Shown piece by piece: positions 1 through 6,234 of a stretch of 6,771 nt of DNA. Under the pieces are notes generated by a model. That model did no database searches, had not been told where the DNA came from, and saw nothing but the letters and a program-made list of their open reading frames with translations. The translations under genes were made by a program, and so were the position numbers. The DNA comes from a virus (Duplodnaviria > Heunggongvirae > Uroviricota > Caudoviricetes). The stretch lies in IMG/VR virus record IMGVR_UViG_2534681934_000014; one strand, written 5' to 3'. Numbering within the stretch: position 1 is the first letter of the stretch; every line of letters begins with the position of its first letter.

Positions 1-938
1 GGGACCATCTGGTCGCAGTACTGCGCAATGGCATACAGCGCCCACTTGTCCACATCCGCCGCCCCCAGGCGTTTTCCCATGCCGTAGCGCGGGTGAGTCA
101 GCATGTCCCACAGGCACCAGGCAGGGTTGTTGCTGTATGCCGGTTTCAGGCTGCCGTCCCAGATGCCGCTGTACGTGCGTTTTTCCGGGTCATAGTTTGA
201 CGGCACCTGGATGATGCGACCGCGGATATGGTAGTTCACCGTCATCTGCTGACCGCCAAACTGCTCCGCATCCACCTGCAGCCCCACAATCGCCGTGTTC
301 GGGTAGCACTGTTTCACATCGATGATTTCGGTGTATGACGACCACAGCGTTCTGTTCTGCAGCTGGTCCGTGGTGCTGTCCGCCGTCTCCCTGACCATCC
401 GGATGTTAAAGGGCCGGGGCGGCAGATTATCCAGAATCACCGACGCCAGGAACTGCGAGGTGGTCTTGCCGTTAATGGTGACATCCTTTTCCGTCACCCA
501 GTTACCGTTACGCTGCAACTGAATCAGCAGTCGGACAGAAGAGTGATTACGGTCGCCCTTTGAGGTGGTCTCCAACAGTGACTGCACCCCGAAGGTGACC
601 CGCAGGCGGTCAATGTTCGCGGACGTAATGGTGCGCGTCACCGGCTTTGCCTTCGTCACTTCCACGCCCAGTCCGGTTTCAGCTCCGGAGGACTCAAAGC
701 CTTCAGGTGGTGTCTGCTCCTGCTCCCCGGCGCGCCAGACCGCTGTCACACCATGTATCACAGGATTACCGTCCGTGTCCGTCAGCGGGGTTTTGTTCAC
801 CAGAATACTCTGCAGCCCCTTCACCGGACCTTCAATCGGCCCTTCACCAATGGCGTCAATCACGCTCATCATCTGCGTGGACTTAAGATTGTCCTTTGCC
901 TCTACCGGCGTGTGCCCCTTGCCGCCCCCTTTACCCAC
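1..938 (-). CDS. J: Tail tip / central tail fibre protein J, N-terminal 312 codons (continues past window start)
   Basis: Minus-strand translation from GTG at 938 reads VGKGGGKGHTPVEAKDNLKSTQMMSVIDAIGEGPIEGPVKGLQSILVNKTPLTDTDGNPVIHGVTAVWRAGEQEQTPPEGFESSG...TITSANIDRLRVTFGVQSLLETTSKGDRN, closely matching the lambda gpJ N-terminus as I recall it (MGKGSSKGHTPREAKDNLKSTQLLSVIDAISEGPIEGPVDGL...). The frame is closed by a TGA at 1013-1015 and has no in-frame ATG upstream; GTG at 938 sits 10 nt after an AGGAGAGGGGGA Shine-Dalgarno-like stretch. Not in the ORF track because it is truncated by the window edge. Confidence 0.9.
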   Translation of the reverse strand, partial: MGKGGGKGHTPVEAKDNLKSTQMMSVIDAIGEGPIEGPVKGLQSILVNKTPLTDTDGNPVIHGVTAVWRAGEQEQTPPEGFESSGAETGLGVEVTKAKPVTRTITSANIDRLRVTFGVQSLLETTSKGDRNHSSVRLLIQLQRNGNWVTEKDVTINGKTTSQFLASVILDNLPPRPFNIRMVRETADSTTDQLQNRTLWSSYTEIIDVKQCYPNTAIVGLQVDAEQFGGQQMTVNYHIRGRIIQVPSNYDPEKRTYSGIWDGSLKPAYSNNPAWCLWDMLTHPRYGMGKRLGAADVDKWALYAIAQYCDQMV

Positions 939-1013: not shown

Positions 1014-1133
1014 TCATGACGGAATAAAATTTCTGAAACTCTTCACATTTCCGGCAATTGCCTGTAGCCGCAATAATGACGCTGCATTACTTTTTTGATG
1101 CCTGAAAAATAACTCCATAACGTTAATCTTCAT
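1014..1133 (-). CDS. Hypothetical small protein (39 aa), candidate moron ORF between I and J
   Basis: ATG at 1133 preceded by GGGAGAG about 6 nt upstream; translation MKINVMELFFRHQKSNAASLLRLQAIAGNVKSFRNFIPS; TGA at 1014-1016; immediately followed by the hairpin/U-tract at 980-1012. Sits in an AT-rich island (~1014-1140) between GC-rich tail genes. No homolog recognised; too short for the ORF track. Confidence 0.25.
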   Translation of the reverse strand: MKINVMELFFRHQKSNAASLLRLQAIAGNVKSFRNFIPS

Positions 1134-1141
1134 CGTTCTCT

Positions 1142-1179
1142 CCCGCAGCTCCGCTAACTCTGCGGGATTTTTTTATTTT
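1142..1179 (+). terminator. Putative rho-independent terminator in plus-strand sense (antisense to the tail operon)
   Basis: Stem CCCGCAG (1142-1148) pairing with CTGCGGG (1160-1166), 11-nt loop, followed by ATTTTTTTATTTT (1167-1179). The U tract follows the hairpin only on the plus strand. The I stop codon (1179-1181) lies at the end of the T tract. Confidence 0.45.
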
Positions 1180-1856
1180 CATCCCCGCCCGATAACCACC
1201 ACTTTCCCGTCTCCGCCCTCATCACGGGTGCTGATGTCCTGGGATATCCGTCGTGAACCAACCAGCATTTCACCATAAGGCACCGGCATCGGGTTCCCCT
1301 GGGCAATCATGTTATCCAGTGACGAAAAATACGTGTTCTGTTTACCGTTATCCGTTGCGCGGTAATCCGGTGTTTTTTGCCTTCGGTGCCAGCATCTGGG
1401 CCACACCGCCCAGTATCATGCTGGCCCCCAGTGAAAACAGCATCGTGGTGGCAGAAAAACCACCGGCTGCCAGGGCTGAACCCCATAACGCCATTGATGC
1501 CCCGGCCGTGAAGAAAGAGCCCACGATGGCTGCCGCCCCCAGCACAATCTGCAGTCCACCCTTTCCGGCCCGGCCAGTCGCGGCACAATATGGATGACCG
1601 CCCCCTCACCCAGAGGTTCGTGAAGACGGGCGTACACCGCCTCCGGTGCCGTGTCCTCACCGCGAATACGTATCTGGTACCAGCCTTCGTTCATCTGACG
1701 GCGGAATCCCGGCACCTGTAACGACAGCGCCCGGATGGCTTCCGCTGCCGTGTTCACATACAGGCTGAGGCGGCGGCCAAATCGTTGCAAATCCCCGTGA
1801 AGGCAGATGCGTGCCAGTGGCGGTGACGCCAGACAGAATGCGTTCGTCGTTGCCAT
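1179..1856 (-). pseudogene. I: Tail tip assembly protein I, reading frame disrupted by two compensating 1-nt indels
   Basis: Three successive minus-strand segments match lambda gpI in order. Frame A from ATG 1856: MATTNAFCLASPPLARICLHGDLQRFGRRLSLYVNTAAEAIRALSLQVPGFRRQ...VIHIVPRLAG. Frame B (~1570 to ~1376): KGGLQIVLGAAAIVGSFFTAGASMALWGSALAAGGFSATTMLFSLGASMILGGVAQMLAPKAK. Frame A again (~1376 to 1179): TPDYRATDNGKQNTYFSSLDNMIAQGNPMPVPYGEMLVGSRRISQDISTRDEGGDGKVVVIGRG. Switch points fall in a G/C run (~1566-1572) and a T6/A6 run (1373-1378). Read in frame A alone, the ORF gives 146 aa with a nonsense C-terminus and a stop at 1416. The ATG at 1856 overlaps the 3' end of K by ~100 nt. Confidence 0.8.
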
Positions 1857-2497
1857 TTTTCGGAATACCTCTCCCGTTTACTCAGTTGTTCAGGCAGATG
1901 GTGAAGCAGTTCACCGTTGCCGCAGTATATGGCGGCATGATTGGCCACCGATGCGCCAAAGCAGCACAGCAGGATATCGCCCGCCTGTGCAGAGGACAGG
2001 GGCACCCGGTAAAAACCAGTCGCCGCCATATTGTCCAGGTAAAGGTTCTGACCGTTGCGCCACCAGTCATCCTCACGCACAAAATCCGGCAGCGTTATCC
2101 CCGCCAGATGGTATGCATCCCGGAACAGGGTGTAACAGTCCGTCACCCCGTGCTCAAAACGACGCCCGGTCAGGTGCGGCACACAGCGGAATTTGTGAAT
2201 TTCCCCCCGGCAGACCAGCCACCAGGGCAGGGCACTCTTTATCTGCAGCCGCCGGTCGGCCTCGCTCAGCCAGGGCAGACCACCAGGGTGGCTGTGAACC
2301 AGCGCCACAATCTCCCCCTGCATCTCTGCCTGCAGCCAGTCTTCCGGCGCAATACGAAAATACGCCTCCGGCTCTGCGGAGATATTCACGCAGGGCTGGT
2401 ACCGTTCGCCCTCCGGGGTGCCTATCACGAAGCCGCACGACTCCGCAGGCGCACACCGCCGGGCACGCACCAGAATCGCTGATTCAGTCTGTGTCAT
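1754..2497 (-). CDS. K: Tail tip assembly protein K (JAB/MPN-type metalloprotease-like plus NlpC/P60-like domains), 247 aa
   Basis: ATG at 2497, 10 nt after the L stop; MTQTESAILVRARRCAPAESCGFVIGTPEGERY... matches the lambda gpK N-terminus as recalled. Contains HSHPGG...SEADRR (JAMM-like) and a downstream Cys/His region (DCYTLF...HAAIY) typical of NlpC/P60. The track ORF 1754..2758 is the same frame extended upstream into L; the extension is not homologous. Confidence 0.9.
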   Translation of the reverse strand: MTQTESAILVRARRCAPAESCGFVIGTPEGERYQPCVNISAEPEAYFRIAPEDWLQAEMQGEIVALVHSHPGGLPWLSEADRRLQIKSALPWWLVCRGEIHKFRCVPHLTGRRFEHGVTDCYTLFRDAYHLAGITLPDFVREDDWWRNGQNLYLDNMAATGFYRVPLSSAQAGDILLCCFGASVANHAAIYCGNGELLHHLPEQLSKRERYSEKWQRRTHSVWRHRHWHASAFTGICNDLAAASACM

Positions 2498-2507
2498 AAA
2501 ACAGGAT

Positions 2508-3206
2508 TTACTGCGAAAGTTTATTGATGGAAAGGAAACCGCCAAAATTAGCCACCATGCCGCGCATCTCACACCCGCGCATGCATTTACTGCATCTGTC
2601 CTTCCGGATATCCGTGGTGGGGTTGTCGAACTCATCCGCCACTGCCGGACCGTTATACCCGCATTCATCGCCCCGGTAATCCCACATACAGGTGTTCGCC
2701 AGCATGATGCGACCGGGAAACAGCGCCCCGTCCGTCTCCGTCGGTGTCGCCAGCACAAACGAGGCCGTCATGGCCGTCAGCGATGACATCTGCTCCACCA
2801 CCCACCGGTCCGTCAGCTCCTGCTCAGGGTCTGCCTCAGGATTGCCTGCCACAAAATTCACCGCATCCAGAAAACGGGCATACACCCGGCGGCGGACCAC
2901 CGTGGCCCCCACCAGGCTCTGCAGGTCCTCCGCCATCCCGGTGACCAGACCAAACAGATTCGACACCGTCAGCGACAGTCTGGCACTGCTGCCCTTCCCG
3001 TTCATCTCAAAGCCACTGCCGTCAATCGGGTATGCCTGATATTGCCGCCCCTGCCAGGTAACCGCCTCCCCTTTTTCATTCAGCTCATTGCAGAAAAAAT
3101 ACCGCTCACCGCCCTGCGCCGTCAGGTCGATTTCCCAGAGTACCACCCGCGGTGACTGCTCTGATTTAACCGACTCGTTCAGACTTTCTTCGTGAATATC
3201 CTGCAT
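2508..3206 (-). CDS. L: Tail tip assembly protein L, 232 aa
   Basis: Track ORF, same length as lambda gpL; start overlaps the M stop (TGATG). The C-terminal region carries clustered cysteines (CMWDYRGDEC...DRCSKCMRGC), consistent with the reported Fe-S binding domain of gpL. Confidence 0.9.
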   Translation of the reverse strand: MQDIHEESLNESVKSEQSPRVVLWEIDLTAQGGERYFFCNELNEKGEAVTWQGRQYQAYPIDGSGFEMNGKGSSARLSLTVSNLFGLVTGMAEDLQSLVGATVVRRRVYARFLDAVNFVAGNPEADPEQELTDRWVVEQMSSLTAMTASFVLATPTETDGALFPGRIMLANTCMWDYRGDECGYNGPAVADEFDNPTTDIRKDRCSKCMRGCEMRGMVANFGGFLSINKLSQ

Positions 3207-3535
3207 CAGTTCACCACCTGCTTAAACTCCGCGCTGAACTCAACGCGCAACATCCCGACCCGCGCAGACCACCCGGCACAGGTCACCTTTATCTGCCGGT
3301 ATGCATAGGGTGGCTTCCACAAAAATGCCTTCCAGCCTCCGTGCTCTGCCAGGAACGCTTCCAGATGCCGGGCCTCCTCCCGGGTCACGGAAAGCGTCAC
3401 ACGGTATGTTTTCAGGTCAGCATTCAGCCCTGCCGCCATACGCTGTGAGTACCCGTCACCAAAACGCACTTCACGCACCGATGGCTGCGAGTTCACCTCC
3501 ATATCCGGCTTCACTTTCCAGCGAAAGGTTTTCAT
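3206..3535 (-). CDS. M: Tail tip protein M, 109 aa
   Basis: Track ORF MKTFRWKVKPDMEVNSQP..., same length as lambda gpM; its ATG overlaps the H stop in an ATGA arrangement (translational coupling). Confidence 0.9.
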   Translation of the reverse strand: MKTFRWKVKPDMEVNSQPSVREVRFGDGYSQRMAAGLNADLKTYRVTLSVTREEARHLEAFLAEHGGWKAFLWKPPYAYRQIKVTCAGWSARVGMLRVEFSAEFKQVVN

Positions 3536-6171
3536 CGCCCGCTCCCCGATAACATACCGCCATCACGCAACTGCAGCCGGAGCTCATCCTGCGCCCCCTT
3601 GCGGGCCATGTCATACACCGCCTTCATCAGCTGCGGCCCCGCCTGTCCGTTGGTGCCGTCGTTCTGAATCACCACGTGATTGTTCTGATTAAAATTAATA
3701 CCTTCCGCCCGCCGCATCTGCGCCGGACTTCCGGCACCACCCACATAACCACCTTCCGCATAGCCGCGCATCAGACGGTAAAGATTCCCCACACCTATCC
3801 GGCTGGTTGCCTCTTTCGTGAAAACAAACTCCCCGCGGTGAACTATCCCCGCAGGCTCATATTTGCCGCCCGTCCCCGTAAATCCTCCGGTCGCGAAATG
3901 GAAGTTCGCCGCCGCAGCCTGAATGGCCGTCCCCGAGGAAGCAGATGCACCACCACCGAAAGCACCGCCAATGGCGCTGCCGATACGCCCGACAATGCCC
4001 ACCATGGCCTGTTTAAGCAGGATTTCTGTCATCATGGACAGCACCGAACGGGTGAATCCCCGCCAGTCTGCCTCTGCACCGGTCAGCATCGCCGCCATAT
4101 TCTGTGCAATACCGTCAAAGGTCTGCGTGGCAGCACTTTTAACCTGCGAAAAACTGTCCGTCGCACTTTCCGCCCACTCGCCCCAGCCGGACTTCAGCCC
4201 GGCCATCCAGCTTCCACGAAGCTGCTCCTCCGCAGACCTGGTGTTCTTCAGTGCCGATGTGGCCTTCGCCAGCGCAGCCGGATTATCACCGTACACGTCC
4301 CGAAGACGCTGCGCTTCAGACTCCCGCTGCGCCTGACGGTCAGTGAGACCGCGGGCTTTTGCGCTGATGGCGGCCTGCTTCGCGCTCTGCTGCTCTTCAA
4401 ACCGCACCGCCTGCTGTGCCAGCTCATTCAGGCGTTTCTGGTATTCAACCTTGTCGCCCAGCTCAGCCAGCTGGCGTTTGTACTCCAGCGTCTCGTCTTT
4501 ATGCGCCAGCAGGGATTTTTCCTGCTCAGATAACTGTCGTTTCGTGGCAGCCTCTTTCAGGACCGCATACTGACTTTCCGCCTTCCATAAATCACGGCGC
4601 TGCCGGCTGATTTTCTCATTCGCACCGCTGTGTTTTTCCAGCGTCCTGAGCTCAGCTTCAAGGGCAAGCAGAGCCTCTCTTGCCTGCTCCTCTTCCCTCT
4701 CCCCGGCAGAGCGCGTTTTCGGTGATGTATGCTTTTTACCTGTCAGCTCTTCAGCCAGACGGCTGACGGCTTCCTGCTGCCCCGGACCTTTGCTGACGCC
4801 TGTTGCACGCGAGCGGTTGATGTACCCCATTTCCCCCTGGCGTATACGCGCATCCCGTTCCGCAATGGATTTTCTCAGCGCCAGTTCATCGCGTTTTGTT
4901 TTCTCAATAAATACGCGGTTCTCTTCTGCCAGTTCACCAAACAACGCACCAACGCCGGGCACATTCTTTGTCGTTTCCCAGGCTGACTGAATAAATTCAG
5001 CCAGCGCCAGATCCCCCTGCACAAGCAGCAGCTTCACTTGTTCAACGGTTCCGGCCACCACGTCAGTGATCAGACTGAGTGCCCCCAGTGTATGATCACC
5101 TATCCATGCCCATGCGTCAGAAGTCCAGGTTTTAACATCGTCCCAGATTTTTTCCACCGGCGTGGCCGCTTTATCAAGTTGCTCCAGACGTGCATTCATG
5201 ACATCCGCAAACAGGGACATCGCCTCCGTCACCGCAACCTGTTTACCTTTCGTGCGCTCAAGCTCATCAATATGGCGTAACTGGGAAACGCTCAGGAAGT
5301 TATACTGCTGATTCAGGGAGGCCAGCGCCTTCACCGGATCTGCTGCAATCCCTTCAAAGGCTTTTTCCACCTTCCCGGCATCGTCCCCCACCGTCTGCAG
5401 CCATCTCTGAGAGGTTTCCCCCATGATCCGTAGCTGCCCGGCGGTATATTTCCCGCTTTCTGCCAGACGGGCCAGATTTTCTGCCGCCTGTCTGATACCA
5501 CCACCGGCTTCATCGCTGATCACCCCGGCCATTTTCCACAATTCTGCCGTTGTGGTGGCAGCCGCCCCTCCGGTCAGGATCAGTGAACGCAATAAGGCCC
5601 GGTCAGCCTGCTCTGCCTGCCAGGCGGCGGCAGCAAGCGCGGCCAGTACGGCAACCCCGCCACCTGCCGCCACACGGGCCACCGACATAAATCGTCCCAG
5701 CTCACCGGCATTCCGGGCATTTTCAGCCAGTGCATTTGCCGTATCTGACAGCGACTCCTCTGATGATTCAGAGGCATCCCTGATCCCGAGAAGTTCCTCC
5801 TTCAGCAGGGTAAGCAGGCTGAGCGGTCCACCGAATGAATCGCTGATCTGCCCCCCCTGCTGCAGCATGATAAGGAAGGGATTCTGACCACCGGCAAGCT
5901 GAGTGACAATATCCGTGAACTGTGCGGGCAGTGTGCGCATGGCAGCCTTATACTGTCCGACTGATATCCCGGCTTTTTGTGCCGCCAGCGCCTGTCGGCT
6001 CAGCCCCTGTTCAACAGTACTGGCGGTTTTTCTGGCATCCGCCTCCAGACTGGAAAAATGAGCGTCCAGTTGGGTATCCTGAAAATAATGCGTGCAGTAA
6101 AAACGTCGCCAGTCGGCATATTCGGTGGATGTCATCCCGGCAAGCATGGCGCGCCAGTCGGGTCTCCCCAT
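3532..6171 (-). CDS. H: Tail length tape measure protein H; the ORF as drawn starts at the first ATG, but the frame is open upstream to 6234 and is the -1 frame of G
   Basis: 879-aa track ORF. From ~6034 the translation (ARKTASTVEQGLSRQALAAQKAGISVGQYKAAMRTLPAQFTD...) aligns with lambda gpH from about residue 36 as recalled; the C-terminal ~400 aa (LLALEAELRTLEKHSGANEKISRQRRDLWKAESQ ... GIVHRGEFVFTKEATSRIGVGNLYRLMRGYA ... KAVYDMARKGAQDE) are near-collinear with lambda gpH. The central ~380 aa (Ala/Gly-rich) differ from lambda. The first ~45 codons after ATG 6171 resemble gpT, not gpH. No convincing Shine-Dalgarno precedes ATG 6171 or the next in-frame ATGs. Confidence 0.85.
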   Translation of the reverse strand: MGRPDWRAMLAGMTSTEYADWRRFYCTHYFQDTQLDAHFSSLEADARKTASTVEQGLSRQALAAQKAGISVGQYKAAMRTLPAQFTDIVTQLAGGQNPFLIMLQQGGQISDSFGGPLSLLTLLKEELLGIRDASESSEESLSDTANALAENARNAGELGRFMSVARVAAGGGVAVLAALAAAAWQAEQADRALLRSLILTGGAAATTTAELWKMAGVISDEAGGGIRQAAENLARLAESGKYTAGQLRIMGETSQRWLQTVGDDAGKVEKAFEGIAADPVKALASLNQQYNFLSVSQLRHIDELERTKGKQVAVTEAMSLFADVMNARLEQLDKAATPVEKIWDDVKTWTSDAWAWIGDHTLGALSLITDVVAGTVEQVKLLLVQGDLALAEFIQSAWETTKNVPGVGALFGELAEENRVFIEKTKRDELALRKSIAERDARIRQGEMGYINRSRATGVSKGPGQQEAVSRLAEELTGKKHTSPKTRSAGEREEEQAREALLALEAELRTLEKHSGANEKISRQRRDLWKAESQYAVLKEAATKRQLSEQEKSLLAHKDETLEYKRQLAELGDKVEYQKRLNELAQQAVRFEEQQSAKQAAISAKARGLTDRQAQRESEAQRLRDVYGDNPAALAKATSALKNTRSAEEQLRGSWMAGLKSGWGEWAESATDSFSQVKSAATQTFDGIAQNMAAMLTGAEADWRGFTRSVLSMMTEILLKQAMVGIVGRIGSAIGGAFGGGASASSGTAIQAAAANFHFATGGFTGTGGKYEPAGIVHRGEFVFTKEATSRIGVGNLYRLMRGYAEGGYVGGAGSPAQMRRAEGINFNQNNHVVIQNDGTNGQAGPQLMKAVYDMARKGAQDELRLQLRDGGMLSGSGR

Positions 6172-6234
6172 CTCTCGCGCCAGTTTCAGGACAAAGTTCA
6201 GCTCGCCTTCGAATGCTTTTTTGATGTTACCGAC
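6034..6234 (-). other. T-like remnant (GT chaperone -1 frame) fused in frame to H; no stop codon between T-like sequence and H
   Basis: The frame that opens after the TGA at 6235-6237 reads VGNIKKAFEGELNFVLKLAREMGRPDWRAMLAGMTSTEYADWRRFYCTHYFQDTQLDAHFSSLEAD and then runs straight into H-homologous sequence. The AMLAGMTSTEYADW.RFY.THYF motif matches my recollection of the N-terminal part of lambda gpT. Coordinates of the junction are approximate. Confidence 0.6.

What the first reader, a model, noticed from the sequence alone, without database searches (positions are those of the whole stretch)
1179..1856. Gene I disrupted by two compensating single-base indels in homopolymer runs
Homology to gpI proceeds through frame A (1856 to ~1570), frame B (~1570 to ~1376) and back to frame A (~1376 to 1179). 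The switches occur at a G/C run (gccgggccgg, ~1566-1572) and an A6 run (1373-1378 on the minus strand). The net shift is zero, so the 65-codon hydrophobic Gly/Ala-rich core is read out of frame and a stop appears at 1416. Possible explanations are homopolymer sequencing errors, genuine pseudogenisation of a tail assembly gene in a decaying prophage, or (least likely) slippage-dependent expression.
Basis: seen in the sequence. Interest (0 to 1): 0.5.

Follow-up and report, generated by a model that had tools for sequence, protein, structure and literature searches.

The report
Likely sequencing errors in prophage gene I
The two one-base shifts that break a lambda-type tail assembly gene are really in this sequence, but the sequence is a short contig of an old draft genome and the shifts are most likely homopolymer sequencing errors, so the finding is ordinary.

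Summary
On the minus strand, homology to lambda tail assembly protein I runs in one frame (1856 to about 1572), a second frame (about 1568 to 1379), then the first frame again (1372 to 1179). The switches lie at a GGG run (plus-strand CCC 1569-1571) and an A6 run (plus-strand T6 1373-1378). Frame A has a stop at 1416-1418.

Over 851 bases, more than 100 complete O157:H7 genomes differ from the window only at these two sites. They carry GGGG and A5, which give an intact gene.

The window is the whole 6771-base contig AIFO01000040.1 of the 2012 draft genome of E. coli O157:H7 strain DEC4E. Four differences are private to it: these two indels and two substitutions, all within 1.6 kb. The two substitutions are evidently not reproduced in the later closed genome of the same strain (CP038398).

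The same run-length variants occur in only four other assemblies. In each, the neighbouring genes are also frameshifted or fragmented.

I conclude that this is a sequencing or assembly artefact (about 0.85). The main rival is real decay of the gene (about 0.12). Programmed slippage is effectively excluded. I could not read CP038398 here, and it would settle the question.

A 367-base deletion fusing genes T and H in the same contig is real.

The parts
1179..1856 (-). Gene I (lambda-type tail tip assembly protein I). As written it is split over two frames. Restoring one G and removing one A gives a 225-aa protein identical to the allele found in many O157:H7 genomes.
   Evidence: The intact protein is in the collection on 32 contigs (225 aa) and 219 contigs (192-aa PGAP version).
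1572..1856 (-). Frame A, N-terminal domain of gpI (PF06805 Lambda_tail_I), up to ...HIVPRLAG.
   Evidence: Pfam E=4.9e-15 on residues 15-96; alignment with lambda gpI.
1569..1571 (-). First lesion: a GGG run on the minus strand (CCC on plus). All close relatives have GGGG or GGAG, so one base is missing here.
   Evidence: The exact 39-mer with the short run occurs in only 1 of 5426 complete genomes, and there sodC, I and K are all flagged frameshifted. P0106 is a different gene I allele that carries the same G-run loss. It comes from an assembly with fragmented L and J and no K called.
1379..1568 (-). Frame B: the hydrophobic Gly/Ala-rich core of gpI (AGKGGLQIVLGAAAIVGSFF...MLAPKAK). It is out of frame with both flanks. 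The draft annotation called it as a 65-aa 'putative membrane protein' (ORF 1348-1545).
   Evidence: (EHV12642.1, seen on a single 6771-base contig).
1416..1418 (-). Stop codon that ends the frame-A reading after 50 out-of-frame codons. It lies upstream of the second lesion, so the second indel cannot rescue translation.
1373..1378 (-). Second lesion: an A6 run on the minus strand (T6 on plus). All close relatives have A5, so one base is extra here.
   Evidence: The 38-mer with A6 matches only 2 of 5426 complete genomes (97% identity). In both, neighbouring tail genes are also flagged frameshifted.
1179..1372 (-). Frame A again: the conserved C-terminal part of gpI (TPDYRATDNGKQNTYFSSLDNM...VVVIGRG).
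   Evidence: phrog_4554 E=5.8e-33 and phrog_32 E=4.2e-22.
1754..2497 (-). Gene K (C40/NlpC-P60 peptidase). It overlaps the start of I by 103 nt, as in lambda. It carries a draft-private substitution at 2466 (R11; relatives have H).
   Evidence: The exact 247-aa product is not in the protein collection, and the 39-mer is absent from all complete genomes.
2508..3206 (-). Gene L. It carries a draft-private substitution at 2977 (L77; relatives have P).
   Evidence: The exact protein is found only on this draft contig, as EHV12644.1. The 39-mer is absent from all complete genomes.
3532..6171 (-). In-frame fusion of the T frame to tape-measure gene H, made by a 367-base deletion with its junction at 6046-6061. 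This is context: a real lesion of the same tail module.
   Evidence: The exact 879-aa product is QKB43308.1 on a 5,362,528-base contig, which is the length of the closed DEC4E chromosome CP038398. The junction is absent from 5426 complete genomes.

Best explanation
The two indels are most likely base-calling or consensus errors in a draft assembly, not features of the organism.

The window is a complete 6.8-kb contig of the 2012 draft genome of E. coli O157:H7 strain DEC4E. It covers the tail genes (end of V, G, T-H, M, L, K, I, start of J) of a lambda-like prophage related to Sakai Sp11. This module is present in about ten near-identical copies per O157:H7 genome. Such a region gets poorly supported, possibly paralogue-contaminated consensus in a short-read draft.

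One base was under-called in a G4 run and one over-called in an A5 run of gene I. This throws the roughly 63-codon hydrophobic core out of frame in the deposited sequence. In the cell, gene I is probably the intact 225-codon allele seen in many other O157:H7 genomes.

**Shown:** the identity of the contig, the exact nature of the lesions, their absence from good assemblies, and the non-reproduction of two other private differences of the contig.

**Inferred:** that the two indels share that cause.
For: 1. **Source.** The 65-aa frame-B ORF is EHV12642.1 of E. coli DEC4E. It is seen on one contig of 6771 bases, AIFO01000040.1 of GCA_000249455.2, which is the window itself.
2. **Only two differences.** Over 851 bases the window differs from more than 100 complete O157:H7 genomes only by the two homopolymer indels. 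Repairing them gives a protein identical to WP_024748477.1 and its 225-aa form.
3. **Not seen elsewhere.** None of the frameshift products (146, 113, 169, 136 and 75 aa) exists among about 15 billion proteins.
4. **Company of the same variants.** Among 5426 complete genomes the short G run is in 1 and the A6 run in 2. In all three, adjacent genes (sodC, K, L, J) are also annotated as frameshifted, as in error-rich assemblies. P0106 is another product with the same G-run loss. It lies in an assembly whose L and J are also fragmented and where K is not called.
5. **Other private differences of the contig.** Substitutions at 2466 and 2977 are absent from every complete genome. The closed PacBio+MiSeq genome of the same strain (CP038398) contributes the identical T-H fusion protein to the collection. 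It does not contribute the window's L or K proteins. So the closed genome does not reproduce these differences.
6. **Density.** Four private differences within 1.6 kb is far more than the clonal O157:H7 lineage should accumulate (inference).
7. **Platform.** The same institute's E. coli drafts of that year were made with 454 Titanium and Celera Assembler. 454 is known for homopolymer length errors (established knowledge).
Against: - I could not read the closed DEC4E genome or any reads, so the indels themselves are not directly refuted.
- The same prophage has a real, strain-private 367-base deletion that fuses T to H. The tail module may therefore already be defunct and free to decay.
- Random homopolymer errors would fall twice in gene I only about 1.4% of the time (13 of 110 runs of 4 or more bases lie in I). 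Some local cause, such as low coverage or paralogue reads, has to be assumed.
- I could not verify the sequencing platform of the DEC drafts. The paper by Hazen et al. 2012 is not held.
Confidence: 0.85

Rival explanations
1. Real pseudogenisation. In strain DEC4E this Sp11-like prophage is decaying. After the T-H deletion disabled tail assembly, replication slippage removed a G and added an A in gene I. The gene now yields only a 146-aa truncated product.
For: - The T-H deletion in the same contig is real and private to this strain.
- Homopolymer runs are also hot spots for real slippage mutations (established knowledge).
- Rare frameshifted I products exist in other genomes, some of them complete O157:H7 genomes.
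Against: - Two real private indels 195 bases apart, plus two private substitutions within 1.6 kb, is far above what the clonal lineage should accumulate.
- The two substitutions are not reproduced in the closed genome of the same strain.
- A compensating second indel brings no benefit, because the stop at 1416 precedes it.
- No other genome among 5426 shows both lesions, and the single-lesion matches lie in assemblies full of frameshifts.
Confidence: 0.12
2. Slippage-dependent expression. Ribosomes or RNA polymerase shift by -1 at the G run and by +1 at the A6 run, producing full-length gpI from the interrupted gene.
For: Both sites are homopolymers. An A6 run can support low-level +1 slippage of tRNA-Lys (established knowledge). 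The same module uses a programmed -1 shift between G and T (heptamer A AAA AAG at 6216-6222, read).
Against: - The arrangement is not conserved. Thousands of homologous copies have the uninterrupted frame.
- GCC GGG CCG is not an X XXY YYZ slippery heptamer (read).
- Two independent low-efficiency events would be needed for each protein.
- The variants otherwise appear only in error-rich assemblies.
Confidence: 0.01
3. Chimeric consensus. The contig merges reads from several paralogous prophage copies, and the indels arose where alleles that differ (GGGG versus GGAG, and the divergent core) were forced into one consensus. This is a sub-type of the artefact explanation, not a separate biological reading.
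For: - O157:H7 genomes hold 9-13 places matching this region.
- The contig ends inside V and J, where paralogues continue.
- The two indels bracket the segment where paralogous I alleles differ most: about 25 substitutions between 1356 and 1507 against Sp11. The Sp11 allele has GGAG at the G run.
Against: - Between the indels the window is identical to a single natural allele, with no mixing.
- The J-region substitutions at 673-762 are a natural allele found intact in other genomes.
- The private substitutions at 2466 and 2977 match no paralogue in any complete genome.
Confidence: 0.25

Closest known systems
Bacteriophage lambda tail tip assembly protein I (gpI; Pfam PF06805 Lambda_tail_I; PHROG phrog_32)
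   Same: The gene has the same position between K and J and the same 103-nt overlap with K. It has the same three-part layout: N-terminal domain, hydrophobic Gly/Ala-rich core and conserved C-terminal part. The repaired protein is 69% identical to lambda gpI.
   Different: As deposited, the core is out of frame and the frame-A reading stops at 1416. The 240-nt spacer between I and J holds an extra 39-codon ORF that lambda lacks.
Intact gene I allele of O157:H7 lambda-like prophages (WP_024748477.1; for example strains MB9-1, F8492 and 7636)
   Same: Identical at every base of the 678-base gene except the two run lengths.
   Different: GGGG instead of GGG, and A5 instead of A6. The gene is annotated as an intact tail assembly protein.
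Homopolymer-length errors of draft or uncorrected assemblies (454 pyrosequencing, unpolished long reads)
   Same: Single-base changes of opposite sign, confined to mononucleotide runs and private to one assembly. The same variants recur only in assemblies whose neighbouring genes are also frameshifted or fragmented.
   Different: Two errors falling in one 678-base gene is more clustered than random. The platform of this particular draft was not verified here.
Programmed -1 frameshift of the lambda G/GT tail chaperone
   Same: It lies in the same gene module. A canonical heptamer A AAA AAG is present in the window's gene G at 6216-6222 (read).
   Different: Gene I has no conserved slippery heptamer, needs two shifts of opposite sign, and the interrupted arrangement is not conserved in any relative.

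Membership tests
Lambda gpI tail assembly protein family (PF06805 / phrog_32) | N-terminal Lambda_tail_I domain above the Pfam gathering score | tested here: met
   56.1 bits against a cut-off of 23.8, residues 15-96 of the 146-aa ORF.
Lambda gpI tail assembly protein family (PF06805 / phrog_32) | Collinear hydrophobic core and conserved C-terminal segment | tested here: met
   Both are present, but in frame B and frame A respectively. phrog_32 profile positions 104-150 and 145-201 are matched. See also the alignment with lambda gpI.
Lambda gpI tail assembly protein family (PF06805 / phrog_32) | Single uninterrupted reading frame of about 223 codons | tested here: not met
   Three ORFs in the window as deposited. 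The feature is met after restoring the run lengths of relatives.
Lambda gpI tail assembly protein family (PF06805 / phrog_32) | Synteny L-K-I-J with a K/I overlap | tested here: met
   K ends at 1754 and I starts at 1856, an overlap of 103 nt. Lambda K is 14276-14875 and I is 14773-15444, also 103 nt.
Sequencing or assembly artefact | Variant confined to one assembly and absent from independent high-quality genomes | tested here: met
   The only other carriers have frameshifted or fragmented neighbouring genes.
Sequencing or assembly artefact | Other private differences of the same contig fail to reproduce in an independent assembly of the same strain | tested here: met
   The window's L(L77) protein occurs only in the draft and its K(R11) protein is in no source. 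The T-H fusion protein of the closed genome is present.
Sequencing or assembly artefact | The indels themselves are absent from an independent assembly or reads of the same strain | not testable with these tools
   CP038398 is not in any DNA collection available here.
Sequencing or assembly artefact | Platform prone to homopolymer errors | tested here: inconclusive
   Contemporaneous drafts from the same institute used 454 Titanium and Celera. The DEC genome paper (PMC3370608) is not held.
Programmed frameshift or slippage site | Interrupted arrangement conserved among homologues | tested here: not met
   All close and distant homologues examined have one frame.
Programmed frameshift or slippage site | Canonical slippery motif at the shift site | tested here: not met
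   GCC GGG CCG at the first site is not X XXY YYZ. The second site is only A6 (read).
Genuine prophage pseudogene | Lesion shared by related strains or reproduced on re-sequencing | tested here: inconclusive
   The lesion is not shared by any related strain. Re-sequencing data could not be read.

The most novel reading that the evidence does not exclude
Both indels are real in DEC4E. Its Sp11-like prophage would then have acquired a T-H fusion deletion and a double, frame-restoring but non-rescuing pair of slippage mutations in gene I within a very short evolutionary time. That would be a snapshot of unusually fast decay of one tail module among about ten paralogous copies.
Probability: 0.1. 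Interest if true: 0.15.

Novelty: not a real feature. Interest (0 to 1): 0.05.

Why it matters
It matters mainly as a caution. Frameshifted prophage genes in short contigs of older draft assemblies should not be read as pseudogenes or recoding sites without checking the source and related genomes. If the lesions were real, they would only add one more dead gene to a prophage whose tail module is already damaged by a verified T-H deletion. No new mechanism or open question is at stake.

Tried and rejected
**Reaching the closed DEC4E genome failed.**
- Fetching it by accession (CP038398 / NZ_CP038398) found no such record in the collections.
- Looking up the 879-aa fusion protein's contig found nothing on record.
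- Searching the T-H junction 38-mer in the complete E. coli genomes gave no match, so that genome is not in the collection.

**Other searches that led nowhere.**
- The A6-containing 42-mer in viral contigs gave no match.
- Exact look-ups of the 146-aa and 113-aa frameshift products and of hypothetical single-lesion products gave none.
- The Roary gene table in the supplement of PMC10758439 might have shown how Prokka called gene I in the closed genome. The stored file is truncated and holds no tail gene rows.
- The DEC genome announcement (PMC3370608) is not held, so the platform is unverified.

**Ideas considered and dropped.**
- I thought of inferring the state of gene I in CP038398 from GenBank protein numbering around QKB43308. 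That needs the exact full-length J protein, and the J and K alleles of the related strain 7636 differ from the window.
- I considered that the J-region substitutions at 673-762 were also errors. They are a natural allele present at 100% identity in other genomes.
- I considered recoding and rejected it for lack of conservation and of slippery motifs.

Full report
**What is in the window.** All genes lie on the minus strand and form the tail module of a lambda-like prophage.
- End of V.
- G (6198-6620).
- One long ORF that joins the T frame to the tape-measure gene H (3532-6171).
- M (3206-3535), L (2508-3206) and K (1754-2497).
- I (1179-1856).
- A 240-nt spacer, then the start of J (from 938 downwards).

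The order and the 103-nt K/I overlap are those of phage lambda.

**Check of the observation.** The three minus-strand ORFs 1416-1856 (146 aa), 1348-1545 (65 aa) and 1179-1406 (75 aa) together carry the homology to gpI.
- The first ORF matches Pfam PF06805 (Lambda_tail_I) on residues 15-96.
- The second and third match successive parts of the PHROG tail assembly families phrog_32 and phrog_4554.
- A protein alignment with lambda gpI shows frame A up to HIVPRLAG, frame B for AGKGGLQIVLGAAA...MLAPKAK, and frame A again from TPDYRATDNGKQ.

A nucleotide alignment with the closest genomes places the lesions exactly. Where relatives read GGCCGGGGCCGG the window reads GGCCGGGCCGG (plus-strand CCC 1569-1571). 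Where they read GGCAAAAACACC the window reads GGCAAAAAACACC (plus-strand T6 1373-1378). The gene is 678 bases in both, so the net shift is zero. The frame-A reading stops at 1416-1418, upstream of the second lesion.

**How unusual the lesions are.** An 851-base query around gene I matches 9252 places in 3049 of 5426 complete E. coli genomes. The best 100 or more, all O157:H7, are identical apart from these two positions, and there the gene is annotated as an intact tail assembly protein. Against the closest relative over the whole window (strain F8492), the two indels are the only small indels in 6.7 kb.
- A 39-mer centred on the short G run occurs in one complete genome. A 38-mer centred on A6 occurs in two.
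- In all three, the neighbouring genes (sodC, K, L or J) are also flagged as frameshifted. That is the signature of an error-rich assembly, not of a shared allele.
- A search with the out-of-frame peptide found five rare frameshifted I products. The only one with the same G-run loss (P0106) comes from an assembly in which L and J are also fragmented and K is not called.
- None of the products expected from the window's lesions, singly or together, exists among about 15 billion proteins. The exception is the 65-aa frame-B ORF, which is on exactly one contig.

**Where the window comes from.** That one contig is 6771 bases long and is AIFO01000040.1 of assembly GCA_000249455.2, E. coli DEC4E. The window is the whole contig. 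DEC4E is an O157:H7 strain of the DEC collection. It was sequenced again as a closed genome with PacBio RSII plus MiSeq polishing: CP038398, 5,362,528 bases. I could not read that record with any tool here. The same institute's E. coli drafts of 2012 were made with 454 Titanium and the Celera assembler. I recall the DEC drafts being made the same way, but the paper is not held, so this stays unverified.

**Indirect comparison with the closed genome.** The protein collection does hold proteins of CP038398. The window's 879-aa T-H fusion protein is QKB43308.1, on a contig of exactly 5,362,528 bases.

Two substitutions in the window, at 2466 (K, R11 for H) and 2977 (L, L77 for P), differ from every reference examined. 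They are absent from all 5426 complete genomes. The window's exact L protein is on record only from the draft contig, and its exact 247-aa K protein is not on record at all.

So the closed genome of the same strain reproduces the large deletion but not these two substitutions. The contig thus has four private differences within 1.6 kb (1373, 1569, 2466, 2977), and at least two of them are not confirmed by better data. The substitutions at 673-762 in J, by contrast, are a natural allele found intact elsewhere.

**Most likely explanation.** The two indels are consensus errors in homopolymer runs of a draft contig. The contig covers a sequence present in about ten near-identical copies per genome.

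The clustering of two errors in one gene is not expected from random errors. Thirteen of 110 runs of four or more bases lie in I, which gives about 1.4%. It points to a local cause such as thin coverage or stray paralogue reads. The indels bracket the segment where paralogous I alleles differ most, and one paralogous allele reads GGAG at the G run. I put this explanation at about 0.85.

**Rivals.**
- **Real decay (about 0.12).** It gains some weight from the verified T-H deletion, which probably already disables tail assembly. Against it: it needs an implausible density of private mutations in a clonal lineage, the second indel brings no benefit because the stop precedes it, and two of the four private differences are already contradicted.
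- **Slippage-dependent expression (about 0.01).** The interrupted arrangement is conserved nowhere and the first site is not a slippery heptamer. Two inefficient events would be needed for each protein (inference).

**Comparison with known things and verdict.** The gene is an ordinary member of the lambda gpI family, 69% identical to lambda gpI once repaired. It is identical to a widespread O157:H7 allele. The 'disruption' is best filed as not a real feature. Reading CP038398.1 or the DEC4E reads at two homopolymer runs would settle it. Interest is low.

Noticed in passing
window 3532-6171 (minus), junction 6046-6061: A 367-base deletion relative to all close relatives joins the T reading frame in-frame to tape-measure gene H. 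It removes most of T and about 27 N-terminal codons of H. The deletion ends share about 16 bases. The resulting 879-aa protein is identical to QKB43308.1 of the closed DEC4E genome, and the junction is absent from 5426 complete genomes. It is therefore a real, strain-private lesion.
   Followed up: yes
window 6216-6222 (minus): A canonical -1 slippery heptamer A AAA AAG lies near the end of gene G, at the position of the lambda G/GT frameshift. Because of the T-H fusion, the shifted reading would now run from G through the T remnant into the whole tape-measure protein (read).
   Followed up: partly
window 2466 and 2977: Two substitutions private to this draft contig (K R11 for H, L L77 for P). 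They are absent from all complete E. coli genomes and evidently not present in the proteins of the closed genome of the same strain. They are probably draft errors.
   Followed up: yes
window 1014-1133 (minus) and 989-1012: A 39-codon ORF (MKINVMELFF...) sits in the 240-nt I-J spacer, where lambda has only 60 nt. It has a GGGAGAG ribosome-binding-like motif and is followed at once by a 10-pair terminator-like hairpin with a T tract. It is identical in the O157 relatives aligned and has no PHROG match; it was not scanned against Pfam.
   Followed up: partly
window 1757-1856 (minus); L001 3194-3772: RefSeq (PGAP) annotation starts gene I of the relatives at an internal GTG (window 1757; 192 aa). 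This drops 33 N-terminal residues that align with lambda gpI and lie in the 103-nt overlap with K. The 225-codon reading from ATG 1856 is the better gene model.
   Followed up: partly
proteins P0108-P0110: Other rare truncated I products arise from a frameshift at a different run (the G5 run in QIVLG|AAA). They are each seen on 1-4 contigs, including complete genomes. Whether these are errors or real was not examined.
   Followed up: no
window 673-762: Six substitutions in 90 bases at the start of J differ from the four close O157 relatives examined. They match other E. coli J genes at 100% identity, so this is a recombination patch typical of mosaic lambdoid tails.
   Followed up: yes
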